This document shows, piece by piece, positions 1-49,620 of a stretch of 64,000 nt of DNA. A program made the position numbers and the translations under genes. The notes beneath the pieces were generated by a model. The model worked only from the letters and a program-made list of their open reading frames with translations. It was not told the origin of the DNA and did no database searches. Position 1 is the first letter of the stretch; every line of letters starts with the position of its first letter. The DNA is taken from the NCBI GenBank assembly GCA_965212015.1, contig OZ243037.1, positions 288,001-352,000 of the forward strand, read 5' to 3'. Origin of the DNA: Cenarchaeum sp. GTDB lineage: Archaea; Thermoproteota; Nitrososphaeria; Nitrososphaerales; Nitrosopumilaceae.

Positions 1-5
1 AAGAA

Positions 6-28766: not shown

Positions 28767-29999
28767 CTATGCGCGCTTTCTGGAACGGGGCGTTGCACCG
28801 CCCTTTGCCTTTCTCTTCATCTCTGACATTTCCTTTTGCTGGTCCATATACATGGATTCGAGCGTCTCGAGCCTCTTGCACAGCACGTCAATTTCGGGCT
28901 CTTCGGCGGCCTTGGGCTCTGAGACTGTGGCGCTGCACCCCTTGCAGTGGCTCTTGTCAATATTGTTTCTTTTCCCGCATTTTTCGCACTTTATCATGTA
29001 TAGCTGGTTCCTACCCCTTCCCTTTTTCAGTCCGTGCAGCCTTAGGATGGCGTCCTCCTGGTCAGAGTCGGCAAGATGCTCGTAATATGCGAGCATGTTG
29101 GAGCCTTTCTTCCAGTTGCCATAAACCCTGGCCACGTTGCCCAACGTTTTGGATTTATCAGTCAGCGCCGTGTGCCGGAGCAGGTACGGGTATATCCTTT
29201 TTGATATGCCTGATTTTTTGTAGATGGTATTGAATGCATGCAGGAATATCTTGTATCTGCGATCCGAGCGGTAATTCGAAAAAAACAGGTAGGCGTCATG
29301 GTTTGCCGAGTCGGGATGATCTTCTAGCCACTCTTTTATGGGCTCCCGGGTGGTGACAAGGGCGAGATCCTTGGGCCCTGTCTTGCCGTGCGTGGATACC
29401 CTGACAAAATCCCTGTGGAATTCAAGCCCGCCAATCTTGATGTTGAGCAGCTCCCCCGGGCGGTATGCACCCTCGCGTATGGCGTACAGCATTGCGAGGT
29501 TCTGCTTTACGTACCTGCCGCCCTTTTTCTTTGCCGTCTGAAGCAGGCGGACAAACTGTGCAAAGGTAACGAGATCCTTGGCCTGAAGGGAGCAGTACCT
29601 GTTTTGAAACTCGCCCGGCCTTATCCACGCCACGCGCGGGTCGTACTTTATGTCACGTTTTGGATCGGCTATGTTGCCGTGTATGGCAAAGTGGTATATC
29701 CGCCTGAGCGTCGTCAGCGTGTCCTTTTTTGTAGAGTTGGCCCAGTCGCACGACGCTATCTCCAGGTGTATGTCGTGGATGTTCTTTTTGTTCCACTCGT
29801 TTACCGGCTTGTTGCAGATGGCGAGGATTCTCTTTAATGATTCGGCGTAAAACGATATCCTGGCGTCGGATCGGTTGAGCATTTTGAGTGCGTCGAAAAA
29901 ATCAGACGCAAGCCGGCCGTTGCATTCGCCGTATTGCTCCATGATTGCCATGCGGGCATTTTCGATCTTTTTCCTGCATCCGTGTATGTCCTCTGCCAT
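28767..29999 (-). CDS. Tyrosine recombinase/integrase with C-terminal zinc ribbon
   Basis: YRPGE, HGKTG, YLLRH, YYEH; CxxC-x10-CxxC. Confidence 0.92.
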   Translation of the reverse strand: MAEDIHGCRKKIENARMAIMEQYGECNGRLASDFFDALKMLNRSDARISFYAESLKRILAICNKPVNEWNKKNIHDIHLEIASCDWANSTKKDTLTTLRRIYHFAIHGNIADPKRDIKYDPRVAWIRPGEFQNRYCSLQAKDLVTFAQFVRLLQTAKKKGGRYVKQNLAMLYAIREGAYRPGELLNIKIGGLEFHRDFVRVSTHGKTGPKDLALVTTREPIKEWLEDHPDSANHDAYLFFSNYRSDRRYKIFLHAFNTIYKKSGISKRIYPYLLRHTALTDKSKTLGNVARVYGNWKKGSNMLAYYEHLADSDQEDAILRLHGLKKGRGRNQLYMIKCEKCGKRNNIDKSHCKGCSATVSEPKAAEEPEIDVLCKRLETLESMYMDQQKEMSEMKRKAKGGATPRSRKRA

Positions 30000-30423: not shown

Positions 30424-30621
30424 TTGCGTCGGGATTGTAGGCGTGATTTTGCAGATTTGGGCAGCCTTTTGGCCCTGCCTAGTCGAGATCCATACCGGAA
30501 GGGTTGGAATCCCACACCGGCGGCCTGTCCAGCACCATACCCTATGGATCGGCGCAGAGCTTGTCGGAGGTTCAATATGAAAGTTCCGGGGGGGCTTAAA
30601 AGGGCCTCACAATTGGGAAAC

Positions 30622-31917
30622 ATGGCAAAATATACCATATCGGAGGACATTCACAACTATGCCCGCAAGATGGAACGGGGCAGAAAGAGGCTCCTGGCGC
30701 ACCCCAGCGGCAAGACTGCCATCGAGTTCCTGGCCGAGCTGGGCCTGCGGGGAATCACTCCTGCAAGGCAGTGCCTGTACCTTGACCGCCTGTTTACCAT
30801 AATGAAGCAGCTTGAAAAGAGCGGGGTGCATATAAGAGACGTTTCGACCGCGCAGTGCAAGGAAATGCTTGCCGACATTATAGCGGGCGACTATGCCGGC
30901 GAGACAAAATCGGCGTATGCCATGTGCCTGCAAAGATTCGTCCACTATGCAAAGACCGGCCTCATCGGCGACCGCCGCACCGGATATGCCGAGGAGGTTG
31001 CCTGGATTATGCCCTCAAAGTACAGGGGCAGAAGATCAAACGTCAGGAAAAAGGACCTGCTGACGCCCGAAGAGTTTGTAAAAATTGTAAAATGCACCAA
31101 AAGCGTCCGGGACAGGGCCATGCTCTGGGTAATGTACGAGGGCGCGTTCCGCCCAGGCGAGATGCTCAACATGCGCGTCGGCGGCATAGAGTTTGCCGAC
31201 GAGTATGTGATAATCAGCACGCACGGCAAGACCGACCAAAAATCTGTCGCCCTGGTCTTTGCGTTCCGTCCCCTGCTGGACTGGCTTGAGGAGCATCCGC
31301 TGTACGATGACCCCGACGCGCCATTATGGTGGTCAAAGTGGTCGCACAACGGATGTGTAAACTATCCCACGCTAAGCAAGGTAGTCACGGTATCTGCCGC
31401 CCGCGCGGGAATAACAAAGCGCGTCTGGGGATACCTGCTGAGGCACTCGCAACTGACGCATCTTGCCACAAAGCTTCCTGACCAGATCCTGCGCGTGTAC
31501 GGCAACTGGTCCCCCGGCTCCAGGATGGTGTCCCGGTACACGCACCTCTCCTCGCGCGATGCCATGAACGCCGTGCTGAGCCTGCACGGCATTGCGCGCG
31601 AGGAGCCAAAGGGCGGGGGACTGATGGTGTGCCCCCGGTGCAACAAGCGCTCGCCGCCGGACGTCCGGCGCTGCACGGAATGCGGATACATGCTTGACGA
31701 GGCCGCGCGCGCGGCACTGACCCGCGACGATCTGGAAAAATCCAGGATACACAGCGGCACGATAAGCATGCCCGCTAAAACAATCACACCCGCAAAAAAT
31801 GCCGGGTTTAGAGTCACCGTCGACGAGGGGCTGTTTGGGGATGGCATGCCGGAGACGGGCGGGGTCCGGGACGCACAGCCTGGCTCCTTTTCGGACTCGG
31901 CCTATGTCGACGTCTAG
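30622..31917 (+). CDS. Tyrosine recombinase/integrase with C-terminal zinc ribbon
   Basis: FRPGE, HGKT, YLLRHS, RYTHL; CPRC..CTEC; start set by similarity (EDIH) to the paralog N-terminus. Confidence 0.93.
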   Translation: MAKYTISEDIHNYARKMERGRKRLLAHPSGKTAIEFLAELGLRGITPARQCLYLDRLFTIMKQLEKSGVHIRDVSTAQCKEMLADIIAGDYAGETKSAYAMCLQRFVHYAKTGLIGDRRTGYAEEVAWIMPSKYRGRRSNVRKKDLLTPEEFVKIVKCTKSVRDRAMLWVMYEGAFRPGEMLNMRVGGIEFADEYVIISTHGKTDQKSVALVFAFRPLLDWLEEHPLYDDPDAPLWWSKWSHNGCVNYPTLSKVVTVSAARAGITKRVWGYLLRHSQLTHLATKLPDQILRVYGNWSPGSRMVSRYTHLSSRDAMNAVLSLHGIAREEPKGGGLMVCPRCNKRSPPDVRRCTECGYMLDEAARAALTRDDLEKSRIHSGTISMPAKTITPAKNAGFRVTVDEGLFGDGMPETGGVRDAQPGSFSDSAYVDV

Positions 31918-31947: not shown

Positions 31948-31976
31948 CCCTTAAATGGCCCCCGTATTTGTTGCGT

Positions 31977-32807
31977 ATGCTAAAGATTGGACTTGACATC
32001 GGAACCGGGTTTGTAAAGTGCGTGTCCGACTATGGCCGGGTTTGGTTTCCGTCATTATACACAAAAAGAGTACACGGAATCTGGACGGGCAAAATATCGG
32101 AGGCCGTGGGCATGAAGGCAGTGAAAATGCTAAAGACTGCGGGCGTCTCTGCCGTGAGGCCCATAACCCGGGGAACGCCGGATCCCAGATACCAGAAGCA
32201 GGTGGAGCTCTTGATAAAAGAGTCGATGAGGCAGATTCGAAACAGCGCAAAGACCCCGGTGGATGCGGACGAAAAAATCAGGATTGTGGCCGGGCTGCCG
32301 TATCACGCGTTCGGGCACAGGGACGCCATAACCCGCATAGTCAAGAAAACGCTCAATGCCGAAAAATGCTCGGTGGTGGCCCAGGCGTCCGGCACGCTGG
32401 TGGACCTTGGCCGGAGCAGCGGAATCGTGGTATCCATCGGGCAGGGAACCACGGAGATTATAGTGGTGGACGATTACGAGGTAATAGACGGCGACAGCTC
32501 GCAGTGGGCGTCGGATTTTGTCACAAAAAAAATCGGCAGGTTTGCCCACCTGGATGCGGACCTGCTGGGCCAGAACAGGGAGCTCTGCCGAAAATACTCG
32601 CGCATTCTGGCGGAAAACCTGATAGGCGAGATACAGGACATGGCGCAAAGCTATGGCGGCCAGTACCCGATAGCACTGTCAGGCGGGGGCCTCTTGATTC
32701 ACGGGGTGCGCGACGTGCTGGAGGCGGGCCTGAAGGACTTTGAGATTATGGTTCCAGAAGATCCGGTAATGAGCAACGCAATAGGCCTGTACAAGCTGGT
32801 GGAATAA
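31977..32807 (+). CDS. Actin-like ATPase (ParM/StbA/MreB-like)
   Basis: Phosphate-1 IGLDIGTGFVK, phosphate-2 VSIGQGTT, adenosine LSGGG, connect-2 PVMSNAIG. Confidence 0.85.
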   Translation: MLKIGLDIGTGFVKCVSDYGRVWFPSLYTKRVHGIWTGKISEAVGMKAVKMLKTAGVSAVRPITRGTPDPRYQKQVELLIKESMRQIRNSAKTPVDADEKIRIVAGLPYHAFGHRDAITRIVKKTLNAEKCSVVAQASGTLVDLGRSSGIVVSIGQGTTEIIVVDDYEVIDGDSSQWASDFVTKKIGRFAHLDADLLGQNRELCRKYSRILAENLIGEIQDMAQSYGGQYPIALSGGGLLIHGVRDVLEAGLKDFEIMVPEDPVMSNAIGLYKLVE

Positions 32808-32812
32808 ACCCG

Positions 32813-35800
32813 ATGGGCTCTAAACGCTGGAGGCTTGCAAACAAGAGAAAACAAAAGGGGCAGCTTGACTGTGTGAAAAAATTCCTGCCCGCCGCAGACG
32901 GGCTCTCGGCGGTATCGGTGATTGTTCCAATACTGATGGACAAAAAGGAGGCAATTGCGGCCGCCGGCGGCCTGGTCAGCGCGGGCATCCGGAGCTTTGA
33001 GCTGTGGTGGGACGGGGACGAGAAAAGCATGCAGTTTGTCCTGGTCGGCGAGTCGCGCGACATTTCAAACTTTAGGCAGGCCTTTATCAACATGTATCCG
33101 AACGCGAAATTCGAGAATCTTGATCACACCGTACCAAAATGGTTTGAGCGCGATGAACAGTACCAGATATTCGACGTCGGGACGTATCACGGCCACTATA
33201 CGGCGGTATTTGACAAGGCCAAGGCGCACCAGATAATCTCACAGATTACAAACACCGTACAGCTCTCAAAGTTTGCCTGGATACAGTTCGTGTTCCGAAA
33301 CTATGCCTTTAACAAGTTTTTGCGCAGGCACGTAACGCGGCTCGACGAAAAGGCAAGGGAGATAAAATCCGGAAACTATCTGAGCACGACTGACATTCTC
33401 ATGCACCCGGACAAAAAGCCGCACGCGCATCCGGAGCAGGGGTACGACTTTGGAAACAACTATCCGGGGCTACAAAAGCACGCCACGTTAAAGACGCAGA
33501 GCTCCCACCTTCTCATGAGCATACGCGGCATGATAAGGAGCGATTCGGAGATAAACCTGCACTTTGACGAGATAGAGGCGCTTCCGGTGGAGAGCATCCA
33601 CTCTGGCCACGAGCACCTTACAAAATTCAGGTACAAGTACGAGAATTTTTGCGCCAAGGATCCCAAAAAGACCCGCGTGCGAGTCGAGGGACAAAAGGAC
33701 CGCCCGCAGAGAATGGACATGTTCGAGTCCCGGCTCCTGCCGGATCCGGAGCCGTTTTTGGACTCGGCAATCGGGAAATACTTTGACAAGGGGATTTTCA
33801 GCTATCGCGAGAGGGAGTCCCTGCCGTTTCTCATACTGAATCTTTCGGAGATGCCGCTGTTTGTCCACCTGCCAAACGCGACAACGCCAAATATCGGCAC
33901 CACCCGCGGCGTCACGCTTCCGGCAAAGCCGTCAGAAAAACAGGGGGCAAACATCGGGTTCTTTGGGATAAAAAAGGACTATGACTGGCAGTCGATATGG
34001 GGGATTACGGCAAAGTCAAAGGACATTGATGCGGCGGTAATATCGCCTACAGACTTTGCCAACCATTTCTACTGCGTGGGCGCCTCGGGCTCCGGCAAGA
34101 CGTCCCTTATCCGCCTTTTTGCCAAGCACCTGGAGGCGTGGAACAAAAACAAGGAGTTTCCAAACGCGTTCATATACGTGGATCCAAAGGGGGACGACTC
34201 TCACAAATTCGTCAAGCAGTGCGCCCCGGAGACGGTGCGCGGCGGCATGGTCCATTTTCTGGATCCCCAGGAGACGAAATTCTCGATAAACCCGCTGGAG
34301 CTGCCGCCGTACCAGGAGAACGAGCGCGAGGAGGTAGTCTCTAGATACGTCGGCTATTTCATGAAGACCATAGAGGAGTGGTACCAGCAGTCGACAAGCT
34401 TTGTGCAGATGGAGAGGATATTTCGCGCGCTTTTGTTTTACATATACATGAGGCACGACTCGCCCACGTTTCTTGACATACACGACATCATACTGCGGCT
34501 ACAAAGCAACGGAAACAATGCGCTGCCGTATATAATCAAGATTTTTGGCACGCCGGATCCGGAGATGCTGCAGGCCCTTGAGAGCATTTCCGGGCTAAAG
34601 GGTGACGCCTTTGTGCCCCTGCTCAACAGGATAGAGCAGTTTGCCACGGATCCCATACTAAAGAGAATGTTCTCGGTCAGGCACGGAACGGTCGACTTTG
34701 ACGAGATTATACAGCCAGGAAGCTGTACCATTGTCCGGATATCCCCGCTCAACATGCCCCACCACGTCCAGCCGCTTGCCATGCAGGCGTTCATACTAAA
34801 GCTGTGGTTTACCATACAGGAGCGCGCAAACAAGGTACAGGACGAAAAGGACCGCACACAGGTGATTCTGGCGCTCGACGAGTTCCAGATAGTCAAGGAT
34901 CTGCAGGTATTACAGCTCATGCTGGAGCAGGCAAGATCCCTGGGACTCGGGCTTGTCCTGTCACACCAGACCACCGAGCAGATAAGCGACAAGCAGCTCG
35001 GGATAATATCGGGCAATTCTGGAACCCAGCTTGTCGGAAAGGTAAACGGAAAGGACGCAGGAAGGCTCTCCCAGATCTGGGATCCACAGTTCCAGGGCGA
35101 GCTCCTGCAGCAGCTGGCAAGCCAGGAATACTTTCACTGGACCGTGCGCGAAAAGGCGCCGCTGGGCCAGGAACAGCCTCCCCCGACACAATTCTGGCTG
35201 AACCGGCCGCCCGACCTGCTCACTACGGGCGCCGAATACGACGCGTTTGTGGCATCCCAGCTTGCCAAATACGGCAGGGGCGCAGTCGAAGAGTCGTCCA
35301 TAAAGCAGATTGCCGCAGAGAGGAACAAATGGCTTGAAAGCATAACAGTCCGGTTTCCCAGCCAGATTGAATGGAGAATAATGCTGATGCTGTTAAAGGG
35401 GCCCATGCGGCAGGCAGACATGGTGGACAGGCTCAAGGTCTCAAACAGGTCCGAGGTGTTCGACGCCCTCGGCAGTATGGAGTCCAGAAAGATCGTGGTC
35501 AGGACTGATGATACCAGAACCTCCCCGTACGAGCTTGCCAGAAAGGCGAAAAAAGACTATTTTAAACACGATTCAGGCGAGATTGGATCCGCAGAAGAGA
35601 TAGAGGAGGTGACAAAAAGGGTAGTCGAGATGTACCAGAAAAGGGAATCCTTTGTAGCCGTGGCCTCCCAGAAGATAAGAAAGGGCCGGGACAGGACGGA
35701 TCTGGTGGCCTATGACTATGATACAGAGACGGCCATCAGCGTGGAGATAGAGTCGGTCAGCGAGGTACAGAGCCACAAGGAGCACGTCCGGTACAACATG

Positions 35801-35923
35801 GTAAAGTGGAGGGACATGGGCTTTCAGGAATGCCATGTCTGGTCCAAGAGCCCCAGGATCCGGCAGATCTACGAGAGCCTCGATCCCGAGGAGAAACTCG
35901 GGGTCAGAACGGGCGTCATTTGA
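32813..35923 (+). CDS. VirD4/TraG/HerA-like P-loop ATPase with C-terminal wHTH and PD-(D/E)XK-like domain
   Basis: GASGSGKT, YVDPKGD, INPL, LALDEFQ, RSLGLGLVLSHQ; C-terminal TDLVAYD...SVEIES; true start may be GTG 32918. Confidence 0.85.
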   Translation: MGSKRWRLANKRKQKGQLDCVKKFLPAADGLSAVSVIVPILMDKKEAIAAAGGLVSAGIRSFELWWDGDEKSMQFVLVGESRDISNFRQAFINMYPNAKFENLDHTVPKWFERDEQYQIFDVGTYHGHYTAVFDKAKAHQIISQITNTVQLSKFAWIQFVFRNYAFNKFLRRHVTRLDEKAREIKSGNYLSTTDILMHPDKKPHAHPEQGYDFGNNYPGLQKHATLKTQSSHLLMSIRGMIRSDSEINLHFDEIEALPVESIHSGHEHLTKFRYKYENFCAKDPKKTRVRVEGQKDRPQRMDMFESRLLPDPEPFLDSAIGKYFDKGIFSYRERESLPFLILNLSEMPLFVHLPNATTPNIGTTRGVTLPAKPSEKQGANIGFFGIKKDYDWQSIWGITAKSKDIDAAVISPTDFANHFYCVGASGSGKTSLIRLFAKHLEAWNKNKEFPNAFIYVDPKGDDSHKFVKQCAPETVRGGMVHFLDPQETKFSINPLELPPYQENEREEVVSRYVGYFMKTIEEWYQQSTSFVQMERIFRALLFYIYMRHDSPTFLDIHDIILRLQSNGNNALPYIIKIFGTPDPEMLQALESISGLKGDAFVPLLNRIEQFATDPILKRMFSVRHGTVDFDEIIQPGSCTIVRISPLNMPHHVQPLAMQAFILKLWFTIQERANKVQDEKDRTQVILALDEFQIVKDLQVLQLMLEQARSLGLGLVLSHQTTEQISDKQLGIISGNSGTQLVGKVNGKDAGRLSQIWDPQFQGELLQQLASQEYFHWTVREKAPLGQEQPPPTQFWLNRPPDLLTTGAEYDAFVASQLAKYGRGAVEESSIKQIAAERNKWLESITVRFPSQIEWRIMLMLLKGPMRQADMVDRLKVSNRSEVFDALGSMESRKIVVRTDDTRTSPYELARKAKKDYFKHDSGEIGSAEEIEEVTKRVVEMYQKRESFVAVASQKIRKGRDRTDLVAYDYDTETAISVEIESVSEVQSHKEHVRYNMVKWRDMGFQECHVWSKSPRIRQIYESLDPEEKLGVRTGVI

Positions 35924-36302
35924 TCCGGAGTTTTTCCAACCTGCTGGGTTCGGGCTTTTCCTGATCCTCGGATTCTTCTGAATCTTCCGGCTCTTCCGGG
36001 GGTGCGGTTTTTTTGGCGGGACGCCTACCGTGCCGCACCGTCTTTTTCTCGCTGCGCGACTGTTCCATGATTGACTCCATGGCCGCCTCGTACTTGTCCA
36101 TCTCGCCGATGTCCTTTTTTGTCAGCTCGCGTCCCAGCGGTTTTAGCATTACCTTGCCGTTGGTTCCGTAGAACCGTATGGTCTGGCCTGCCTCCACCCC
36201 GAGTATGTCCACCATTCTGGTCGGAACCGTAATGACATAGGATCCGTTGTCCTTTTTCTGCAGTATTCTTTCGTGTACCTTTTTGCCATCCATTACCCAC
36301 AA
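35916..36302 (-). CDS. AbrB/MazE/SpoVT-fold DNA-binding protein with charged tail
   Basis: GSYVITVP..MVDILGVEAGQTI; low-complexity acidic C-terminus. Confidence 0.8.
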   Translation of the reverse strand: MWVMDGKKVHERILQKKDNGSYVITVPTRMVDILGVEAGQTIRFYGTNGKVMLKPLGRELTKKDIGEMDKYEAAMESIMEQSRSEKKTVRHGRRPAKKTAPPEEPEDSEESEDQEKPEPSRLEKLRIK

Positions 36303-36329
36303 AAGTGCTGTTGCATAAAAGGCCGATTA

Positions 36330-36477
36330 TCGACACCGAAAGCGTCGATTGTCGCCCCCGAAAGCGCTTTCGACTCTTTTTTGTCGACACCGAAAGCGTC
36401 GATTGTCGCCCCCGAAAGCGCTTTCGACTCTTTTTTTATGGCACAAAAGGAGTCGAAAACCGACACCGAAAGCGTCG
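36330..36477 (+). repeat. Two 54-bp-period direct repeats plus a partial copy (five CCGAAAGCG cores); iteron/centromere-like
   Basis: 36330-36382 equals 36384-36436; CGACACCGAAAGCGTCG again at 36461; TTTCGACTC is inverted to GAGTCGAAA near 36450. Confidence 0.9.
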
Positions 36478-36715
36478 CCATAATGCGGCTAGGCGCGGAT
36501 TTTCCCTTCGCATTTACCTTACAAAACAAAAAAACGAATCCTGATCAGCAAAGACATTAAGTCTTTTTCCCAAGGCTCCCTAGCGGGAGCCTCACACCAA
36601 ACCACGTCGGGCTATAGGCCAGCCCGGCTACCCAAGGACCATCCCGGGCCGGCAGAGCCGGCCCTCTTGCCCAGAACCATCCGGGCCGGAGTCCCGGCCC
36701 GGACAGGATACGAGT

Positions 36716-36994
36716 CCGTACAGGTCACCAAGGCCCGTACAGGTCACCAAGGCCCGTACAGGTCACCAAGGCCCGTACAGGTCACCAAGGCCCGTACAGG
36801 TCACCAAGGCCCGTACAGGTCACCAAGGCCCGTACAGGTCACCAAGGCCCGTACAGGTCACCAAGGCCCGTACAGGTCACCAAGGCCCGTACAGGTCACC
36901 AAGGCCCGTACAGGTCACCAAGGCCCGTACAGGTCACCAAGGCCCGTACAGGTCACCAAGGCCCGTACAGGTCACCAAGGCCCGTACAGGTCAC
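36716..36994 (+). repeat. Perfect 19-bp tandem array (CAGGTCACCAAGGCCCGTA), about 14.7 copies
   Basis: CAGGTCAC recurs every 19 nt from 36721 to 36987; no spacers. Confidence 0.97.
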
Positions 36995-37041
36995 ATGATC
37001 AAGGGGGGCTAGTTTTAATCATAAAAACCACCAAACTGGTG

Positions 37042-38271
37042 TTATTTCCCACGGGTCTTTGTCAAATATCTTTTACGCGCCTTTACCTCCGGCCTCTGAC
37101 CGTATTCTTTCTGGTATTTCTGGATCTTTTTCTTCACCTCCGGCCTCTGGCGGTTTTTTCTGATCCGCGCCTTTACCTCCGGCTTTTGGTCGTATTTTTT
37201 CTGATATTCCAGCTGACGATTCCTCACCTCCGGCCTTTGAAGGTATTTTCTGAGCCTTTCTTTTACCTCCGGCCTATGGCGATACTTTCTGATCCGTTCC
37301 TTTACCTCCGGCCTTTGAAAGTACCTTCTGCTCTGTTCCTTCACCTCCGGCCTTTGAAAGTATTTCCTGATCTTTTCCTTGACCTCCGGCCTATGGTTGT
37401 ATTTTTTCATGTATTTCTGGCGATTTTTCCTCACCTCCGGCCTCTGACGGTATTTCCTGGACTTTTTCTTTACCTCCGGCTTCTGAGAATATTCTCTCGC
37501 GTATTTCCTGATCCTTTTCTTTACCTCCGGCCTCTGGCGATATTCTAGATCGTATTCCCTCTTTAGCTTCCTCGTCTCCGGCCTCTGAAGATATTTACTG
37601 AGCCTTTTCTTTACCTCCGGCCTCTGGCGGTATTCCCTCTTGTACTTCCTGAGATTTTTCTTTACCTCCGACCTCTGAGAATATTCCCTCGCGTATTTCT
37701 TGATCCTTTTCTTTACCTCCGGCCTCTGGCGGTATTTCCTGACCCGCTTCTTTACCTCCGGCCTCTGGCTGTATTCCTTTTGCCGCTTCCTTACCTCCGG
37801 CCTCCGGATATATTTTTTCTGTCGTTCCAGATTCTGTTTTTTTACCTCCGGCCTCCGGCTGTATTCTTTCTGGTATTTCTGGATCCACTTCTTTACCTCC
37901 GGCCTTTGGCGGTTTTTTCTGAGCCTTTCTTTTACCTCCGACCTCTGACGGTATTCCCTGACCCATTTCTTTACCTCCGACCTTTGCTGGTATTCCCTCT
38001 GGTATTCCCGGTGATATTTTCTGAGCTTTAGCCGTCTGGCCTGAAATTCCTTTTGCTTTTTCCGATAGTATTCCCACTGGTACTTTCTGAGTTTCTCCTT
38101 GGCCGATACACTGGATTTTGCCTTGGATTTCCCACGGGTATTTTTTGCCTCCGATTTTGCCCGGCTTTTCCTGTTTTTGGCCAGTATCTTCTTCCGATTT
38201 TTCCGATAGTATTCCCTCTGGCGTCTCAGCCTCTCCAGCCTTTTTTTGGCTGATTCCTTGGGTTTTGCCAA
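37042..38271 (-). CDS. Highly basic helical-repeat protein (21 xQRPEVK repeats of 13 or 17 aa)
   Basis: Open frame to 38367; TTG 38271 preferred because it avoids overlap with the divergent gene; repeat spacings are always 39 or 51 nt. Confidence 0.8.
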   Translation of the reverse strand: MAKPKESAKKRLERLRRQREYYRKNRKKILAKNRKSRAKSEAKNTRGKSKAKSSVSAKEKLRKYQWEYYRKKQKEFQARRLKLRKYHREYQREYQQRSEVKKWVREYRQRSEVKERLRKNRQRPEVKKWIQKYQKEYSRRPEVKKQNLERQKKYIRRPEVRKRQKEYSQRPEVKKRVRKYRQRPEVKKRIKKYAREYSQRSEVKKNLRKYKREYRQRPEVKKRLSKYLQRPETRKLKREYDLEYRQRPEVKKRIRKYAREYSQKPEVKKKSRKYRQRPEVRKNRQKYMKKYNHRPEVKEKIRKYFQRPEVKEQSRRYFQRPEVKERIRKYRHRPEVKERLRKYLQRPEVRNRQLEYQKKYDQKPEVKARIRKNRQRPEVKKKIQKYQKEYGQRPEVKARKRYLTKTRGK

Positions 38272-38350
38272 TGTGTGATGTCTTGTTTGGGAATTATTAT
38301 TGATTGTTTTTTGGGCATGGTTTATTTGCCGGGTTTGTAATGGGGCAATA

Positions 38351-38800
38351 ATGGCGGGATTTTCCAAAATCTATTGCATAGGCGGGCTTGGAGGCCATAT
38401 GGGGGCAGACGGCATAAACCCGATTCACTTTCAAATCCTCATAGGAAACAGCGACAGAATGTGGCTGGAGTCAAGATATTTTGACGATAAATTCAAGCCG
38501 ATTGGAAAAATCCATATCATAGTTCCAAAGGCGCCCGATGATCCAAACGCGTTGATAGACGCCTGTATCGCATTCGCGCCGGATTTGTTTGAAGGCCTGC
38601 CGTCCATGAAAGAGACGAAGGAGATTTTGGCAGAGCATACAAGGCTGGATTTTGGCCTGAGGGCAGACGAAATTCCCGACATCTGGAAGACGTTGAGAAA
38701 AGAGGCCATGCCGATTTTTGAGAAACTGCACATTTTTGCAGGTCCATTAACCGAACTTGATGTGGACAAAAAATATCTTGCCAAACCAGGGTGGTATTGA
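38351..38800 (+). CDS. Hypothetical protein
   Basis: MAGFSKIYCIGG..GADGINP; globular composition. Confidence 0.75.
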   Translation: MAGFSKIYCIGGLGGHMGADGINPIHFQILIGNSDRMWLESRYFDDKFKPIGKIHIIVPKAPDDPNALIDACIAFAPDLFEGLPSMKETKEILAEHTRLDFGLRADEIPDIWKTLRKEAMPIFEKLHIFAGPLTELDVDKKYLAKPGWY

Positions 38801-38903: not shown

Positions 38904-39140
38904 ATGGAAGAAAACCAAGTGGTGTATCCAAGAAACATCCAGCACGTCAGCGGCTCGTTTATGATGAACATTCCGTCCCCTATAGCAAGGAAATTGCGTC
39001 TTGTCAAGGGCCAGTGTATTATGGTGGGCGAGTCCGACGGGAGGATAATCATCAAGCCCGTGGACATGGGGGTGGCAAAACGGATTCTTGGTTATGGCAC
39101 GATACCGGCAAAACCGGATGGCATTCCGGCCTCTCAATAG
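38904..39140 (+). CDS. AbrB/MazE/SpoVT-fold DNA-binding protein
   Basis: GSFMMNIP..IARKLRLVKGQ...DGRIIIKP. Confidence 0.8.
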   Translation: MEENQVVYPRNIQHVSGSFMMNIPSPIARKLRLVKGQCIMVGESDGRIIIKPVDMGVAKRILGYGTIPAKPDGIPASQ

Positions 39141-39247
39141 CTTGGAACTGTAATTCACATTATTGCGGGATTGGTACCGACACTCATATTCCGTCGGACA
39201 TTCATTCTGGCGTGTTTTTTCTTTCATCAATATTTGATGATATTGTG

Positions 39248-40207
39248 TTAAACATATTTTTTTGATATATGATATTTCTCTGTTTTGATTATATAGTCAG
39301 AATTATCAAAAATAGTTTTAGATGGATCTTGTATGGTTATGATGCGCTCTGATGAACCATGTGTTCTGATATTTATTCCAGGAACAAAGTAAATCCAATA
39401 TCTGTCTCCGTGCTCTTTGGATTTCGCTAATTCATTGGAGGAAAGATAAAAATCTAAATCCAATCCAGACGAACCCTTGACTTCAATATAGATTTTATGT
39501 ATATGGCCATTGTTACTTGTAAACGATTCAATATCATACCCAGCATTAGCAAATCTATCGCTGATTCGGTCTATTTTTGATGCTTCTTCTGTGTGACCTG
39601 CATCGGCAAGTCTTTTCTGTTCAAAGGCAAGAACCAATTCCTCCGCTATGTTTCCTATTATTTTCTGATTTTCTAACTGTGCTTCCAACATTTTTTGTGT
39701 AATCTTTCTATCATTTTGTCCTATCAACTGGATATATTTTGGATTGATCTCGACTTTGCCGTTTTGTTTTTCAAATAAACCTGTTTCATACAAAATTGGT
39801 AGTATGTCTGGAATTGTGACAATTCCGTATATTTCTTGTTTTGGATACCACATACCGTGATTGTCATCAGTATGAAATTTGTCAAATATTTGAAATATTT
39901 CTCTGTTAATTTGTGGTCCAAAAAACATATTTTTGATAAAGAAATCTTTGAATTCTGGTGATTTGTTCCCGTAAAGTTCTAATGTTTGTACGCCTAAATT
40001 TGTCAGAGCCATTTTATTATTGTCTATTTTCACAAGGCCAAACAATATGCAAATATTTTTGACATTTTCATAGTTTGGCATTCTGGCCTGCTTGACTGGC
40101 TTTTCTTGAAATGTCTTTTTCACATAATTTCTAAGTGTGGGTTTGTGTTCTTCGAATAACCTCACGGTATCAAGCATTTCACATATGTTATGAATGGTCA
40201 GACTCAT
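39248..40207 (-). CDS. DUF3883-type PD-(D/E)XK nuclease with N-terminal wHTH-like region
   Basis: GNIAEELV..FE, AGYDIES, IEVKGS, FYLSSNE, YWIYFV. Confidence 0.85.
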   Translation of the reverse strand: MSLTIHNICEMLDTVRLFEEHKPTLRNYVKKTFQEKPVKQARMPNYENVKNICILFGLVKIDNNKMALTNLGVQTLELYGNKSPEFKDFFIKNMFFGPQINREIFQIFDKFHTDDNHGMWYPKQEIYGIVTIPDILPILYETGLFEKQNGKVEINPKYIQLIGQNDRKITQKMLEAQLENQKIIGNIAEELVLAFEQKRLADAGHTEEASKIDRISDRFANAGYDIESFTSNNGHIHKIYIEVKGSSGLDLDFYLSSNELAKSKEHGDRYWIYFVPGINIRTHGSSERIITIQDPSKTIFDNSDYIIKTEKYHISKKYV

Positions 40208-42155
40208 TGGTTTGGTATACCTTCTTTAGATATTCTATAGTTTGCTTATAGTCCAAGTTAAATTCTTTTAAATTCATATTGTCTGATTCGGGATTTATTT
40301 CTAGTGACTGTAACATATCGTCCTGTAAAGCATCTAGCATATCCCTCCATTTTTCATTAAGCCTTCTATTTATAACTTCATCTATAGTGTTTTTTGCTAT
40401 TATCAAATGATAATTAACCTCTACAGATCTATTCATGCCTATTCTGTGTATTCTGTCCATTGACTGCATATATTGAGCCCCATTAAAGTTCCTGTCTAGG
40501 TATATTGCATGGTTACAAATAGTTTCTCCTCTTAAATTCTTGTGCAAGGAGACTGATTCCCCTAAAGACGCAGGTGATGCTATTAAAATTTTAAATTCTG
40601 GTTTATTTTTGAAATTTTTAATAAGTTCATCTCTATTCCCAGATTCGGATGTGTCTCGTGTTACCTTTCCGTTGATTACTACTGGATTAAATTCCCGTAG
40701 CAGATTTTCAAAAATATACATGTTGTGAATGAATGAATTCCATATGATCACTTTGTGTCCTTTATTGACCAAATCTTTGGCCAAAGCAATTGCTTTTGCA
40801 ATCTTTGTCGGGAGTTCGTACTCTGTATAATTCTTGATTTGATCTATCAACGATGTGGAAATTTCAGGTAATTTATCTATTTTACATTCAAAACCAAATT
40901 CTTCAGAAAACGTATCCTTATCGATGCCAAAATCAAGTGATTTTTCTTGCAAAAGAGTAGGATTTGAAGCAGTTTGGAGCAATCTGACCATTTTTGCCAT
41001 TCTGAATTTTTGTAATTGTCCCTGATCGTGTATGGACAATGCATCATGTTCTTGAAGAGTTTTTGCAGCTATTGCATCGTAAATATCTTGTTGCACCTTG
41101 CCTAATGGTACTGGTATGGGATCCCATTTGGGCTCTGGAAGCTGTAAATCATCTTTCTTTATCCTGCAAAACAGGCTATTCAAAACAGGCTGATATTTTC
41201 CTATCCCTGATTTTTTTGCATAATTGTTATAAATCATTTGATTATCCAGTGGATAGTTGTTTGGCCATAGAAACGTGATTTGAGTCCAGAGGTCTTTTGC
41301 GTTATTAGGCATGGGTGTCCCCGACAGAACAATCCTTCGTGTTGCATATGGTGCAACATTGAGTGCGGTAGATGCCCATCTTCGCAGATCTGGGCTTTTG
41401 ATGTTATGGGATTCGTCTATGATCAATACAGTCTTCCACCTCTGCATGAACTGTTTTAGTTCATGTTGACGATTCATGGCGGTATTGAAATGCATTAGAA
41501 ACAAATCAAATGATTCACCAAACAAGTGGAATTTGTTTGAAATATCTCCTGTAATTCTCAGGGATTTTACACTATTGCCAAAACAACTTTGATACTCTTC
41601 CTCCCAGGGGAGAAATGAAGCAGTCGGTCCGATCACCAGGATCTTTTCCACCTTTTTGTCATCCTGCCATCTGGAAATGGCTGCATACGTGATGGTGGTC
41701 TTGCCACTTCCGGGAACGGAAAAATTAGCCGCGTTACCCAGGGTAATCATGTGTTCTACGGACTCATTTTGGTATTCCATGAGTTTTCTCTTAAACGAAT
41801 CAGATATGTTGGGAAAATGCTCTGTTTTGTTCTTGATCATCTCGCCGGCATTTTTTGCATCCTCAAACGATGTATCGGTACGCTTTATTGTATCCATTTT
41901 GTCCATAATGGCATTGCATAAATCTACGTTTTCTTTGCCAAACTCTTTGACGAAATAAGTAACCGTCCATTTCAGGATTTTTCCAAATTTTACTAGATCA
42001 GAGTTATTATAAACATAGATGTCGCCGTCCTCGTCATAACCCCCTACACGAAGAGTATCTCGAATTTTATAATCAATCGCGTAATCATCCGTAGGATGAA
42101 ATTTAACCGTTATTTTATTTTGTTCATCGATACATATATTGTGCAATTCCATCAA
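40188..42155 (-). CDS. SNF2-family helicase/translocase
   Basis: PGSGKT, DESH, LSGTPMPN, LLQTASNP, QSMDRIHRIG. Confidence 0.92.
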   Translation of the reverse strand: MMELHNICIDEQNKITVKFHPTDDYAIDYKIRDTLRVGGYDEDGDIYVYNNSDLVKFGKILKWTVTYFVKEFGKENVDLCNAIMDKMDTIKRTDTSFEDAKNAGEMIKNKTEHFPNISDSFKRKLMEYQNESVEHMITLGNAANFSVPGSGKTTITYAAISRWQDDKKVEKILVIGPTASFLPWEEEYQSCFGNSVKSLRITGDISNKFHLFGESFDLFLMHFNTAMNRQHELKQFMQRWKTVLIIDESHNIKSPDLRRWASTALNVAPYATRRIVLSGTPMPNNAKDLWTQITFLWPNNYPLDNQMIYNNYAKKSGIGKYQPVLNSLFCRIKKDDLQLPEPKWDPIPVPLGKVQQDIYDAIAAKTLQEHDALSIHDQGQLQKFRMAKMVRLLQTASNPTLLQEKSLDFGIDKDTFSEEFGFECKIDKLPEISTSLIDQIKNYTEYELPTKIAKAIALAKDLVNKGHKVIIWNSFIHNMYIFENLLREFNPVVINGKVTRDTSESGNRDELIKNFKNKPEFKILIASPASLGESVSLHKNLRGETICNHAIYLDRNFNGAQYMQSMDRIHRIGMNRSVEVNYHLIIAKNTIDEVINRRLNEKWRDMLDALQDDMLQSLEINPESDNMNLKEFNLDYKQTIEYLKKVYQTNESDHS

Positions 42156-43378
42156 ACCTCAAATTTTTTCATTAATTTTTCCACGTGTGATGAAATTTTT
42201 TTTATTAAAGATATCGCTTCTGAAGGAAGCTCTGTAATAGGATCATCTATTAAAGGACGAAGATTTTTTTCCGCACGGCTTAGTAGAAGCAATTCCTTTC
42301 CCTCATTATTACTGACATCTAATATGTCTTTGGCGTTAATAAAATGTGCATAAGTTTCAGAAAAATCACGATTTTTTGTTTCAAATTCATCCATTATGGC
42401 GTGTGTATCCTTTTCAATTGTTTCCTGAAGATTTGGTTCTTGCGAGTCCTTTGGTTTTAATTTAGAACCAGCATCTACGATCTCAGTTATGGCATCTCGA
42501 AGGTTTTTCAGCACCATATCGTTGATTCTGCGAAGTTCCAAGTGCTGAATGTCTTCATGGATCAACTGAAATGCAACATATTTTATCTTGGTGATTTGAT
42601 CTGGATCATAGTCGCTTTTTTCACATGATAAAATTATTTGTCTGAGGTTGATAAAATGCTCGACCCTATTTTTTACATTCGAATATTTTTGTGGTGTTCC
42701 CATAAATTTGAGATATTGTTCAAGCAAATCCAATAGTATGAGTTTCTTTGCTATGTCTTCTTCCTCATAACCATAAAGTGTACTCGCGATTGTCTTTATG
42801 CTCAATCCGGCTTGCGTTCCTTCGCGTATCTTTAAAAGCTCGTTGACGGGACCATATTTGATAATCTCATCTTTGCCTAATTGTATCCCTGCTTCTAGCT
42901 TCCATAGATCCTCTGGGGATATGGACTCCTCTAATCTTGCCACATCCAGATATTTCCATTTCTGTTCTCCTGTTTCATCATGTAGGTATGATATTATTGA
43001 CATTCTCCTATTTCCATCAATGACATAACCGTCCTGTGTGATTATTCCATAGTTCCATTGCCCTCGAATTCTGAGATCGTCCTTGGTCCTGTCCGTCTCT
43101 ATTTTATCCAAGCCCAACAAAAGATTTTTTATCTTGACTGCGTCTTTTGGGTTTTCAGGGTTGAGGGAACCGCCTTCATGTTTTTCAAGCTCCTTGTATT
43201 CTGCTGCAAATCGACCGTTCCGAATATTGTAAAATAGCATGTCGATTGGCAGTCTGTACACGTATAGTTCTTTTCTTGTTCCATGTATGGATATCGGGAA
43301 AGAACCGCTGAGTTTGGAGTTTGGATATTTTTCGACATATTCGTCAATACGGGCCTTGTTGTTGGAATTCAGCTCCAT
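42152..43378 (-). CDS. ParB/Srx-like N-terminal domain protein, paralog B
   Basis: FYNIRNGR, GQ..GIITQDGYVIDGNRR. Confidence 0.75.
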   Translation of the reverse strand: MELNSNNKARIDEYVEKYPNSKLSGSFPISIHGTRKELYVYRLPIDMLFYNIRNGRFAAEYKELEKHEGGSLNPENPKDAVKIKNLLLGLDKIETDRTKDDLRIRGQWNYGIITQDGYVIDGNRRMSIISYLHDETGEQKWKYLDVARLEESISPEDLWKLEAGIQLGKDEIIKYGPVNELLKIREGTQAGLSIKTIASTLYGYEEEDIAKKLILLDLLEQYLKFMGTPQKYSNVKNRVEHFINLRQIILSCEKSDYDPDQITKIKYVAFQLIHEDIQHLELRRINDMVLKNLRDAITEIVDAGSKLKPKDSQEPNLQETIEKDTHAIMDEFETKNRDFSETYAHFINAKDILDVSNNEGKELLLLSRAEKNLRPLIDDPITELPSEAISLIKKISSHVEKLMKKFEV

Positions 43379-43472
43379 GTGTTACTATACTTTCTATGGC
43401 TTTAAAACGATTTTGCTGTATTTTCACAGAATTGCCGGCTTATTATCCAATAAATGCCCCATATGGCCAAGA

Positions 43473-44666
43473 TTACTGTAAACGGCCAAGTGCATTTTGA
43501 ACCTTTGTGATCAGATCACTGATCGCTGGGCTGCTCATATCACAACTCTCAATGTCGATATTCTCCAGGTTTTTTAATGCACGTTGGAGCAGTTTTTCTG
43601 GCTGTTGTGCCTCAGAACGTGCCTTTAATGAATCCATGCAGTTGTTAAATACGATTCTGGCATCCGTATATTCATCTTTTTTTTCAGCCTCGACTTTCTT
43701 TGCATCTTTTATGGCCAGAGGTTCTGGCATGCAGTATTTTTCCGCTGTCCATAATTCATTTCTTACAGCATCGGTCTTTAGTATCTCTTTGAGTTTTCTG
43801 AAATCTCTTGCGTGCACACCGTCATGAATTAGTTGAAAACCTATGCGTTTTGCTCGTTCCATTTTATCAGGATCAGGATCTAGCTTGTCAAATTCGGATA
43901 GGATTTTTCTTAAATCTATAAAATGTTCATGTATGCCCTTTGCTCGGTTAAAAACTCCCGGATCTTGTATAAAATGCAAGTATTCTGCAATGAGTTTAAA
44001 TTCTTCGAGTTTTGCCAAAATATCTTTTTCGCTGAAACCTCCAAAGAGCTCATTAGCTATCTCTTTGGGACTTAGATCTGCGTCAAATCCTTCCTTGAAT
44101 TTTAACAATTCATTGATAGGTCCATAATGTAGTTGTGGACTGCGGGACAATTGTATGCCAGCTTCAATTTTCCACAAATCTTGAGATGTAACGTTCGGAG
44201 GCAATCTTGCAACTTCAATAAAGTTAAACTCGGAACGGCCGTGAACGGATACCAAGCTAGACAAGACAGCACGTCTTCTATTTCCGTTTATGACATATCC
44301 GTCATGTGTGATTATTCCTGGCTCTCTTTGACCTTTCTGTAGTACATCTTCCTCCAGTATCTTGCTTTGCTTGAGATCAATTTCTAACAAAAGATCTTGG
44401 ATTTTTTTGGAATCTTCTGGTTTTGTTGTATCAAGCTCGCGTTTTTCTAATTTTTTGAGATCAGCATATTCTGCTGCAAATCTTCCGTTTTTAATGTTAT
44501 AAAATGTGAGATTTAATGGTATTCTATAGGTTTTCAAATCCGTCATTTTTCCATGTAGTTTTTGTGTAATGTCTTTTTGCATCTTGCAGTCTGGATTATC
44601 CTGAATATATCGATCAATTTTTTCGGCATTCTGGGCATTATATGACATATTGCTGATCATCAACAT
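43473..44666 (-). CDS. ParB/Srx-like N-terminal domain protein, paralog A
   Basis: FYNIKNGR, GQREPGIITHDGYVINGNRR. Confidence 0.75.
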   Translation of the reverse strand: MLMISNMSYNAQNAEKIDRYIQDNPDCKMQKDITQKLHGKMTDLKTYRIPLNLTFYNIKNGRFAAEYADLKKLEKRELDTTKPEDSKKIQDLLLEIDLKQSKILEEDVLQKGQREPGIITHDGYVINGNRRRAVLSSLVSVHGRSEFNFIEVARLPPNVTSQDLWKIEAGIQLSRSPQLHYGPINELLKFKEGFDADLSPKEIANELFGGFSEKDILAKLEEFKLIAEYLHFIQDPGVFNRAKGIHEHFIDLRKILSEFDKLDPDPDKMERAKRIGFQLIHDGVHARDFRKLKEILKTDAVRNELWTAEKYCMPEPLAIKDAKKVEAEKKDEYTDARIVFNNCMDSLKARSEAQQPEKLLQRALKNLENIDIESCDMSSPAISDLITKVQNALGRLQ

Positions 44667-44704
44667 CAGAGAATTATAAACTTATCAGTCATTTTGGATG
44701 ATCT

Positions 44705-49150: not shown

Positions 49151-49620
49151 CGTTGGGCTTATGCTATTCTGCTGTTTAAAGTTTTACCCGCAATCCAGAG
49201 GTGGTTTGTTTACCGTCATGAAATGCAAAAACCCTAGTGAGTTTTGGCGGCAGGATCATGTCATGTCATAAAACATTCTGCACAAAAAACTCTTGATTCC
49301 GGTGGTTTTAATTTGAATCCGTGACCTGCCGCCATCTTCCACATTAGAACGAATTACAATTGATCAACAGGATTAAAAACTCGTAACACAAATAAAAAAA
49401 CACGCCGTAACAAACAACAATATCCTGCAGTGTATGTGCACAAAAAAACTTGCAAACGTGCAACAGTAAACAAAAAACAACGAAACGCAATGTTAAAATA
49501 ACAACTCTTCCATATGGATCACATGGATTGCAAGTACGCAACAACATGGTTGCAAAATTTTTCATGCAAATCCCCGGAGCTCTAAAAATGAACGTCACAA
49601 ATCCCGATAAAACCAAAATG

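What the first reader, a model, noticed from the sequence alone, without database searches (positions are those of the whole stretch)
37042..38271. 21-repeat hyper-basic protein next to the 19-bp array: possible modular nucleic-acid binder
Seen: repeats x-Q-R-P-E-V-K-x-x-x-x-K/E-Y of 13 aa, or 17 aa with a 4-aa xxEY/xxKY insert, mixed irregularly, with a fixed RPEV scaffold and variable flanking residues. It has no catalytic domain and its stop lies 47 nt from the tandem array. Inference: a proline-kinked helical solenoid that wraps or condenses DNA for transfer. More speculatively, it is a TALE/PPR-like reader, since the repeat number is close to the array unit length.
Basis: partly seen in the sequence, partly recalled or inferred. 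Interest (0 to 1): 0.7.

Follow-up and report, generated by a model that had tools for sequence, protein, structure and literature searches.

The report
Stand-alone basic helical-repeat DNA binder
A very positively charged archaeal protein made of 21 short helix repeats uses the same unnamed repeat that many mobile DNA-cutting enzymes carry as their probable DNA-holding arm, and the 19-base array beside it belongs to the backbone of the mobile element, not to a target that the protein spells out.

Summary
ORF 37042-38271 (-) encodes 409 residues with 21 [QRH][RK][PS]E[VT][KR] repeats spaced 13 or 17 residues apart. Lys+Arg make up 41% and the net charge is +119. Its stop lies 47 nt from a perfect 19-bp x 14.7 array.

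The protein matches no curated family. Its repeat is nevertheless widespread: 899 clusters match at E<=1e-3. Of the best 150, 30 carry HNH, endonuclease VII, GIY-YIG or T5orf172 nuclease domains. I read it as a nuclease-free, unusually long stand-alone form of a DNA-binding arm, carried by an integrated plasmid-like element of an ammonia-oxidising archaeon.

The TALE-like reading fails. Paralogs with 5 to 26 repeats lie near arrays or hairpin modules that share one 17-nt core. The same array occurs without the gene at 756 kb. Related elements in other genomes have arrays but no such protein anywhere in their genomes. Homologs elsewhere have no arrays.

The array is a cis element of the backbone (actin-like protein, VirD4-like ATPase, AbrB-like protein, hairpin module). 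DNA binding itself is inferred, not shown. This scan had already noted a similar 15-residue arm on phage nucleases in other DNA.

The parts
37042..38271 (-). Gene for the 409-aa hyper-basic protein with 21 'RPEVK' repeats of 13 or 17 residues. An alternative upstream TTG lies at 38367.
   Evidence: homologs
38272..38320 (-). Conserved upstream stretch with an A/T-rich TATA-like box about 26-37 nt before the TTG. It would give a leaderless or near-leaderless mRNA (inferred).
   Evidence: 87% identical to paralog B over 38210-38320; the same box lies before paralogs B and C
37019..37041 (-). Terminator-like hairpin CACCA-GTT-TGGTG followed by a T-run, directly after the stop codon.
   Evidence: consensus scan only
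36716..36994 (.). 19-bp x 14.7 perfect tandem array. Its 17-nt core GCCTTGGTGACCTGTAC (minus strand) is shared with four other arrays of this genome.
36495..36715 (.). Conserved hairpin module, with hairpins at 36574-36591, 36608-36626, 36646-36664 and 36683-36700. Ten copies were aligned from this genome.
36322..36474 (.). Element-specific ~54-bp repeats rich in small palindromes, lying just upstream of the AbrB-like gene.
35916..36302 (-). AbrB/MazE-type (SpoVT-AbrB) small DNA-binding protein, convergent with the ATPase gene.
32813..35923 (+). 1036-aa VirD4/TraG-like P-loop ATPase, the signature gene of the element backbone.
31968..32807 (+). Actin-like (ParM/ALP-type) protein.
30424..31917 (+). 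Tyrosine recombinase (integrase).
28767..29999 (-). Second tyrosine recombinase.

Best explanation
The gene encodes a stand-alone, nuclease-free and unusually long member of an uncurated family of basic helical repeats (consensus Y-x-Q-R-P-E-V-K-x-R-[ILV]-R-K). Each 13- or 17-residue unit forms one short amphipathic helix that starts at the proline. In many phage, provirus and cellular proteins the same repeat run sits beside HNH, endonuclease VII or GIY-YIG nuclease domains, in the place where homing endonucleases carry their DNA-binding arm. I infer that this protein lies along double-stranded DNA as an extended chain of basic helices and binds with little sequence selectivity. It would coat, condense or shield DNA of the integrated plasmid-like element that encodes it.

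The 19-bp array is a separate feature. It is the outer part of a conserved non-coding module of the element backbone (AbrB-like gene, element-specific repeats, hairpins, short-unit array), most likely an iteron or centromere-type site read by a backbone-encoded or host protein.

Shown: the repeat anatomy, family membership, domain contexts, and the independence of array and protein. Inferred: DNA binding, low selectivity, and the role of the array.
For: Repeat anatomy. One helix per repeat, pLDDT 85.5.

Family size: 899 clusters at E<=1e-3 and 109 at E<=1e-10; 284 hits in the other library.

Domain contexts in the best 150: HNH 17, endonuclease VII 6, GIY-YIG 6, T5orf172/MUG113 1, which is 30 of 150. 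A further 2 carry the 'homing endonuclease associated repeat', 1 carries sigma-70 region 2, and 110 have no Pfam domain.

Position of the repeats (together): in 6 of 6 GIY-YIG proteins the repeats follow the N-terminal nuclease. That is where I-BmoI and I-TevI carry their 13-residue NUMOD3 minor-groove helices (PMC3664794, passages). In 16 of 17 HNH proteins and 6 of 6 endonuclease VII proteins the repeats precede the nuclease.

Spread: two QRPEVK motifs at 13-residue spacing were found on 13 viral contigs and 12 genome contigs. These come from Spiroplasma, a Marine Group I thaumarchaeote, Methanoregula, Bathyarchaeia, Acidimicrobiales and others.

Real gene: there are six ORFs at five loci in this genome with conserved N- and C-terminal tails. 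Of 10 differences listed in contigs of other runs, 7 are synonymous.

Array independent of the protein:
- The sister element at 756-764 kb has the same backbone (ATPase 71% aa identity) and the same 19-bp array x 12.2, but no such gene.
- 0 of 13 related backbone loci from other genomes carry the gene, while 6 of 13 have tandem repeats beyond the AbrB-like gene. One of these has a perfect 15-bp x 33 array after a hairpin-rich stretch.
- 0 of 5 of those genomes have any homolog at E<=0.01.
- None of the 27 external homolog loci examined shows a perfect array abutting the gene.
Against: No experiment or structure shows that this repeat binds DNA; the inference rests on domain context and charge. 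Only 30 of 150 relatives carry a recognised nuclease, and 110 have no recognised domain. No NUMOD model matches even at E<=10. The global fold is not confident (pTM 0.30).

Four points favour a link to the array:
- Gene and array, or hairpin module, are adjacent in 4 of 5 loci in this genome, always in the same orientation.
- The stop-to-array spacer is 47-48 nt in both W and C.
- Among 151 genomes of the family searched, the 17-nt-core arrays were found only in this genome, and it alone also carries these long stand-alone proteins; one other genome, G044, has a clear homolog without arrays.
- The element at 756 kb could be served in trans by the paralogs.

No RNA data were available.
Confidence: 0.55

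Rival explanations
1. The protein is the dedicated binder of the 17-nt-core arrays. It would polymerise along the iterons and form the partition or replication-control complex of this lineage of elements. This would be a new kind of centromere- or iteron-binding protein, not a one-repeat-one-base reader.
For: The gene's 3' end faces the array or hairpin module in 4 of 5 loci, and the stop-to-array gap is 47-48 nt in W and C. The 17-nt core is kept in five arrays with three different spacings (19, 27 and 29 bp), which points to a sequence-specific reader. Both the arrays and these long stand-alone proteins were found only in this genome among 151 family genomes. An actin-like gene lies in the same element, and type II centromeres are contiguous tandem repeats (PMC5016525, passages).
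Against: The W and C junctions are homologous sequence, so the adjacency is inherited synteny and not independent evidence. The sister element has the array without the gene. Related backbones in other genomes have arrays, and those genomes have no homolog at all. The paralogs are only about 46-63% identical and carry 5-26 repeats, while the core is identical. External homologs have no arrays.
Confidence: 0.12
2. One reading: a TALE/PPR-like modular reader in which each repeat reads one base of the 19-mer.
For: Only the numerical closeness of 21 repeats to 19 bp, together with some variable positions in the repeat: positions 8, 9, 13 and 17 have entropy above 2 bits.
Against: The six ORFs of this genome have 5, 10, 11-12, 11, 21 and 26 repeats, while those with a neighbouring array or module share the same core. 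The units are single 13- or 17-residue helices, not two-helix units of 33-35 residues. Variability is spread over several positions, and the commonest variable position is a hydrophobic I/L/V, not a defined specificity pair. Arrays occur without the protein and the protein occurs without arrays.
Confidence: 0.02
3. The protein is not a DNA binder. It would be an RNA-binding or chaperone protein, or a structural helical rope of the GerD kind.
For: The extreme basic charge fits RNA as well as DNA. There is a weak sub-threshold Pfam GerD match (E 0.073, 13.5 bits against a cut-off of 29.5). The single Foldseek row is GerD at E 1.2. Two giant relatives match GerD over their repeat region.
Against: The GerD-matching relatives carry neutral 'PEV' helices, not basic ones. 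A net charge of +119 argues against self-association without a polyanion. The recognised partner domains are DNA enzymes or DNA-binding domains.
Confidence: 0.1
4. The gene is a decaying leftover of a mobile nuclease gene that lost its nuclease and now has no function.
For: Some copies in the genome are short, and fragments exist: N-terminal remnants near 1722-1724 kb and a degenerate second copy downstream of locus E.
Against: There are two intact long ORFs (409 and 462 aa), all copies keep conserved N- and C-terminal tails and the upstream box, and 7 of 10 listed differences are synonymous. None of the six ORFs keeps any nuclease remnant detectable by Pfam.
Confidence: 0.08

Closest known systems
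NUMOD3-type minor-groove helix repeats of the homing endonucleases I-TevI, I-BmoI and I-HmuI (PMC3664794, passages read; Pfam accession recalled, not checked)
   Same: Both are short single-helix basic units, 13 residues in I-BmoI. Both are repeated in tandem, lie next to a GIY-YIG or HNH nuclease, and serve as an extended DNA-binding arm.
   Different: There is no sequence match to any NUMOD model, even at E<=10 or among 150 relatives at E<=1e-4. The motif is different (RPEVK with a proline start). Here there are 21 units instead of 1-3, and no nuclease.
The unnamed 15-residue basic helix repeat arm on phage HNH nucleases, noted earlier by this scan (e1-6043883, e1-5325904; AI notes)
   Same: It has the same kind of context (mobile nucleases), the same charge and the same one-helix-per-unit prediction. 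The N-terminal part of this protein (YYRKNRKKILAKNRK) looks like that unit.
   Different: The period here is 13 or 17 residues with an invariant R-P-E-V-K. I did not test whether the two repeats are homologous.
TALE repeats
   Same: Both are tandem helical repeats in a protein without a catalytic domain.
   Different: TALE units are about 34 residues with two helices. They are nearly identical apart from a specificity pair, and their number equals the target length. None of these three features holds here.
ParR/parC type II plasmid partition (R1, pSK41; PMC5016525, passages read). This comparison concerns the array, not the protein.
   Same: An actin-like gene lies in the element, together with contiguous short tandem repeats and a small DNA-binding protein whose gene abuts repeats.
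   Different: The array lies 3.9 kb from the actin-like gene, beyond the ATPase. The small protein is AbrB-type, not ribbon-helix-helix. Nothing was tested functionally.
GerD central core (Pfam PF17898; PDB 4o8w)
   Same: Both have runs of short helices that begin with a P-E motif.
   Different: The match is sub-threshold only. GerD is not basic, and from recall it forms a trimeric rope.

Membership tests
TALE/PPR-like modular base readers | Repeat number scales with the length of the target | tested here: not met
   The six ORFs of this genome have 5, 10, 11-12, 11, 21 and 26 repeats, and those with a neighbouring array or module share the same 17-nt core.
TALE/PPR-like modular base readers | Near-identical two-helix units of about 33-35 residues with one defined hypervariable specificity site | tested here: not met
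   Units are 13 or 17 residues with one predicted helix each. Variability is spread over positions 8, 9, 13 and 17.
TALE/PPR-like modular base readers | Protein and target co-occur | tested here: not met
   Array without the gene. Gene without an array.
NUMOD3 (nuclease-associated modular DNA-binding domain 3) | Match to the Pfam model | tested here: not met
   No NUMOD row for the protein, three paralogs and three homologs at E<=10, nor for 150 relatives at E<=1e-4.
NUMOD3 (nuclease-associated modular DNA-binding domain 3) | Short helix repeats placed as the DNA-binding arm next to a GIY-YIG or HNH nuclease | tested here: met
   This holds for relatives, not for this protein. In 6 of 6 GIY-YIG proteins the repeats follow the nuclease; in 16 of 17 HNH proteins they precede it.
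NUMOD3 (nuclease-associated modular DNA-binding domain 3) | Helix lies in the DNA minor groove | not testable with these tools
   No protein-DNA modelling tool was on hand.
Uncurated 'RPEVK' basic helix-repeat family (defined here) | Tandem units with R-P-E-V-K at a period of 13 residues or 13+4, detectable by sequence search | tested here: met
   21 units. 899 related clusters at E<=1e-3; the best hits are 36-61% identical over the repeat run.
GerD core (PF17898) | Match above the curated cut-off | tested here: not met
   13.5 bits against a cut-off of 29.5, E 0.073.
Type II (ParMRC) partition locus, for the array | Actin-like ATPase gene plus tandem direct repeats that serve as centromere | tested here: inconclusive
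   An actin-like gene is present and arrays are present, but they lie 3.9 kb apart and no function was tested.
Type II (ParMRC) partition locus, for the array | Ribbon-helix-helix ParR adaptor | tested here: not met
   The small protein next to the repeats is AbrB/MazE-type. No RHH protein was found among the ORFs scanned.

The most novel reading that the evidence does not exclude
The long stand-alone RPEVK proteins are the trans-acting partners of the 17-nt-core iteron arrays of this archaeal element lineage. They would polymerise helix by helix along the arrays and build a nucleoprotein filament that serves partition, copy-number control or exclusion of rival elements. That would be a new class of centromere- or iteron-binding protein, recruited from the DNA-binding arm of mobile nucleases.
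Probability: 0.12. Interest if true: 0.7.

Novelty: new variant of a known kind. Interest (0 to 1): 0.4.

Why it matters
The repeat is common (899 clusters) and sits on several unrelated families of mobile nucleases. Yet it has no Pfam, NCBIfam or PHROGs model. Two full-text searches for its motif strings found no relevant paper: six papers hold 'RPEVK' (five listed, none by title or abstract on prokaryotic repeat proteins) and none holds the six longer strings. Naming it would annotate hundreds of 'hypothetical' phage and plasmid proteins, and would give a candidate modular DNA-binding arm for study.

The copies here, with 21 and 26 units and no nuclease, are the longest seen here: 227 external relatives had at most 12 motif copies. 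That makes them the cleanest material for asking what the arm does on its own.

Separately, the window exposes a conserved non-coding module of a plasmid-like backbone found in 34 of 180 sampled genomes of the family. Nothing about this backbone turned up in the passages I searched of the survey of thaumarchaeal mobile elements (PMC6563490).

Tried and rejected
Atlas look-alike search: best score 0.86, below the trust level, so nothing usable.

Foldseek against PDB: no match at E<=0.001; the single row is GerD at E 1.2. VIA-align wide search: only extended axonemal filament proteins, with Z<=7.0 and rmsd above 90 A. This shows no more than that the model is an elongated chain of helices.

The search for related loci with the single protein: it picked non-repeat peptides and found nothing in genome contigs and one weak locus in viral contigs. 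I replaced it with a degenerate DNA pattern for two QRPEVK motifs 13 residues apart.

Sequencing runs: no RNA holder is listed, so expression could not be examined. I laid the gene alone instead. The short-read contigs break inside the gene's repeats, and the many 'joints' mix paralogs with other organisms, so I did not use them as evidence of repeat-number variation.

Rfam: only the tRNA reaches threshold in the window. The relaxed search over 36250-37100 gave one chance-level plant miRNA row.

No direct repeat of the tRNA-Ser gene was found that would mark the ends of the element. The 470-532-aa proteins that follow the modules at loci B and C have no Pfam or PDB match and are not detectably like the window's integrases.

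I considered the element-specific 54-bp repeats as the protein's target. I rejected this because they differ between elements and abut the AbrB-like gene instead. I did not use complex prediction: it takes no DNA, and I make no protein-protein claim.

Supplements of the papers cited were not opened.

Full report
OBSERVATION. The minus-strand ORF 37042..38367 has two possible TTG starts, at 38367 and 38271. They all begin LAK(S/P).ESAKKRLERLRRQREY and are preceded by the same box, cATAATAATTcCCAAACAAGACATCACACA. The window copy is 87% identical to paralog B over 38210-38320.

The 409-residue product holds 21 copies of [RK][PS]E[VT][KR]. In 10,000 shuffles the mean count was 0.04 and the maximum 2. 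Spacings are 13 (11 times) and 17 (9 times). The extra four residues are [KE]-Y-x-x, which is one helical turn. Lys+Arg make up 41% and the net charge is +119.

The array 36716-36994 is 14.68 perfect copies of a 19-mer and ends 47 nt before the stop codon. A terminator-like hairpin with a T-run lies between the stop and the array.

WHAT THE PROTEIN IS. No Pfam, PHROGs or NCBIfam model matches at E<=0.01, and no PDB sequence matches at E<=0.1. The repeat is common all the same. There were 284 hits at E<=1e-3 in the word-indexed library, and 899 cluster representatives in the exhaustive search, 109 of them at E<=1e-10. The sequences show the same unit, for example KEYRQRPEVKERxRE.

I scanned the best 150 against Pfam at E<=1e-4. 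Forty have a domain:
- HNH: 17
- endonuclease VII: 6
- GIY-YIG: 6
- T5orf172/MUG113: 1
- 'homing endonuclease associated repeat': 2 (one below the cut-off)
- sigma-70 region 2: 1
- HTH_38: 1 (just below the cut-off)
- single cases of DUF2080, GGACT, zinc ribbons and LRR
- GerD: 2

The other 110 have none.

Putting together gives the position of the repeats. They follow the N-terminal nuclease in 6 of 6 GIY-YIG proteins. They precede the nuclease in 16 of 17 HNH proteins and 6 of 6 endonuclease VII proteins. The GIY-YIG layout matches I-BmoI and I-TevI, whose C-terminal DNA-binding region contains 13-residue NUMOD3 minor-groove helices (PMC3664794, passages).

A DNA pattern for two QRPEVK motifs 13 residues apart found 13 viral contigs and 12 genome contigs. 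The genomes include Spiroplasma (3), a Marine Group I thaumarchaeote, Methanoregula, Bathyarchaeia, Aenigmatarchaeota, Acidimicrobiales, Vicinamibacterales, Chitinispirillaceae and Lentisphaeria.

AlphaFold2 on the single sequence gives one helix per repeat, broken at each proline (pLDDT 85.5), but no confident global packing (pTM 0.30). Structure searches return only extended filament proteins. In each unit V, I/L and Y fall at i, i+4 and i+7, forming a narrow hydrophobic stripe on an otherwise K/R/E/Q helix.

PARALOGS AND THE ARRAY. The genome is 1.76 Mb in one contig, 51% GC, and encodes archaeal AmoA. It holds six such ORFs at five loci:
- W: this window, 21 repeats
- C: 1161736-1162545, 11-12 repeats
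- B1 and B2: 646826-647149 and 647230-647763, 5 and 10 repeats
- D: 1145946-1147334, 26 repeats
- E: 881157-881894, 11 repeats, with a degenerate copy downstream

Among 227 external relatives fetched, none had more than 12 motif copies.

The array unit recurs elsewhere in the genome. It is found at 756222-756452 (19 bp x 12.2, perfect), 649236-649552 (period 29), 1162593-1162708 (period 27) and 1163234-1163366 (period 29). All share the 17-nt core GCCTTGGTGACCTGTAC and differ in the spacer. A conserved core with variable spacing is the pattern of protein-binding iterons.

Next to each array lies a hairpin module of about 230 nt. I aligned ten copies. The GGCTCCC-N3-4-GGGAGCC stem is invariant, and pairs at its base change on both sides in 2-3 copies. 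A 67-nt part of the module is 97-98.5% identical between five copies, although the neighbouring genes are only 65-71% identical at the DNA level. Beyond the module come element-specific repeats of about 54 bp and, in W and at 756 kb, an AbrB/MazE-type gene.

The repeat-protein gene points into this module in W and C (47-48 nt to the array), in B2 (10 nt to a module without an array) and in D (a degraded module remnant), but not in E. The W and C junction sequences are homologous, so this adjacency is inherited synteny.

IS THE ARRAY THE PROTEIN'S TARGET? There are four lines of evidence against.

(i) The sister element at 756-764 kb has integrase, actin-like protein, ATPase (71% aa identity), AbrB-like gene, module and the identical array. 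The array is followed directly by a helicase-methylase cargo and no repeat protein.

(ii) The ATPase backbone occurs in 45 of 301 genomes of the class at E<=1e-10, and in 34 of 180 of the family. In the 13 closest loci from other genomes, 0 carry a repeat-protein gene within about 8 kb. Six of the 13 have tandem repeats just beyond the small convergent gene, which is AbrB/MazE-type by Pfam in 5 of 12 cases. One locus (G061) has a hairpin-rich stretch followed by a perfect 15-bp x 33 array. Another (G291) keeps the box AAAAAACGAATC and hairpins with different stem sequences.

(iii) None of five such genomes has any homolog of the protein at E<=0.01. The same query did find G000 and G044.

(iv) Of 27 external homolog loci, none has a perfect array abutting the gene. 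One has a 15-bp x 5 repeat about 400 nt away. The two Spiroplasma loci could not be read under code 11. The only clear homolog in 150 other family genomes lies in a provirus-like region without arrays.

Repeat number (5-26) does not track the constant core. The TALE-like reading is therefore not supported.

What remains for a link: both features were found only in this genome among 151 searched, and the 756-kb array could be served in trans.

MECHANISM. I take the protein to be an extended chain of basic helices that lies along DNA, like the arm of its nuclease-bearing relatives, with low sequence selectivity. A 13-residue helix is about 20 A long, so 21 units could cover roughly 100-140 bp; this is my arithmetic, not a tool result. 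The gene sits at the border between the backbone and a cargo of defence-type genes in W, B and D.

The array and module are best read as a cis-acting backbone region: origin, centromere or transfer origin. The compensatory stem changes argue for hairpins that form in single-stranded DNA or in RNA. The contiguous repeats near an actin-like gene recall type II centromeres (PMC5016525, passages). None of this was tested.

LITERATURE. Six papers hold the string 'RPEVK'; the five listed are, by title and abstract, not about prokaryotic repeat proteins. None holds the six longer motif strings. The survey of thaumarchaeal mobile elements (PMC6563490; passages searched for actin, ParM, VirD4, TraG, AbrB, FtsK, HerA, MreB, SpoVT, partition and tandem repeat) describes conjugative elements with VirB4/VirD4. 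The passages I saw mention no actin-like/AbrB backbone and no arrays. Its supplements were not opened.

Earlier notes of this scan describe a 15-residue basic helix arm on phage HNH nucleases, which agrees with this reading. I did not test whether it is homologous to the 13-residue unit.

VERDICT. The protein is a new, extreme, nuclease-free variant of a widespread but unnamed DNA-arm repeat. The array is a separate backbone element, and a modular base-reading code is not supported.

Noticed in passing
own genome C1:647764-650850 (L010:7764-10850) and C1:1162550-1164720 (L011:8550-10720): Two non-coding stretches of 2-3 kb are built of 5 and 3 tandem copies of the hairpin module. Each copy is followed by a different set of element-specific repeats; some match those of the window element and of the 756-kb element. 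They may be graveyards of recombined elements, or collections of rival elements' cis sites.
   Followed up: partly
own genome C1:750128-764281 (L009): Sister integrated element with the same backbone and the same 19-bp array (x 12.2). Its cargo is an 1110-aa SNF2-type helicase with a NOV_C-like end plus an 885-aa methyltransferase-like protein.
   Followed up: partly
window 38904-48495: Defence-type cargo next to the repeat-protein gene: a MazE-like 78-aa ORF, a NOV_C-domain protein, an SNF2 helicase, three large proteins with no family (408, 397 and 731 aa), an N6/N4 DNA methylase and an EcoO109I-like restriction enzyme. A tRNA-Ser gene lies at 49620-49702.
   Followed up: no
L085:1923-2419 (G061:C1, another genus of the family): Perfect 15-bp x 33.1 array GCCCGTGGCTCCATG at the same place in a related backbone, after about 700 bp of GC-rich hairpins.
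   Followed up: partly
own genome C1:743660-744428 and C1:1501488-1501845: Further perfect tandem arrays (48 bp x 16 and 34 bp x 10.5), not examined.
   Followed up: no
window 22793-24373 and 26574-27944: Two proteins with the NCBIfam WING-49 domain, in a lower-GC island that also holds a DDE transposase and a DUF3800 protein.
   Followed up: no
own genome C1:651057-653966 and C1:1164947-1166359: Three paralogous 420-532-aa proteins without any Pfam or PDB match end the module stretches at loci B and C. They may be a divergent recombinase.
   Followed up: partly
window 1-2000: GC content is only 25.5%, against about 51% for the genome.
   Followed up: no
window 36667-37548 (+): A 293-aa ORF that reads through the 19-bp array (19-residue protein repeat) and then runs antisense to the repeat-protein gene. 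It is an artefact that gene callers may report.
   Followed up: yes
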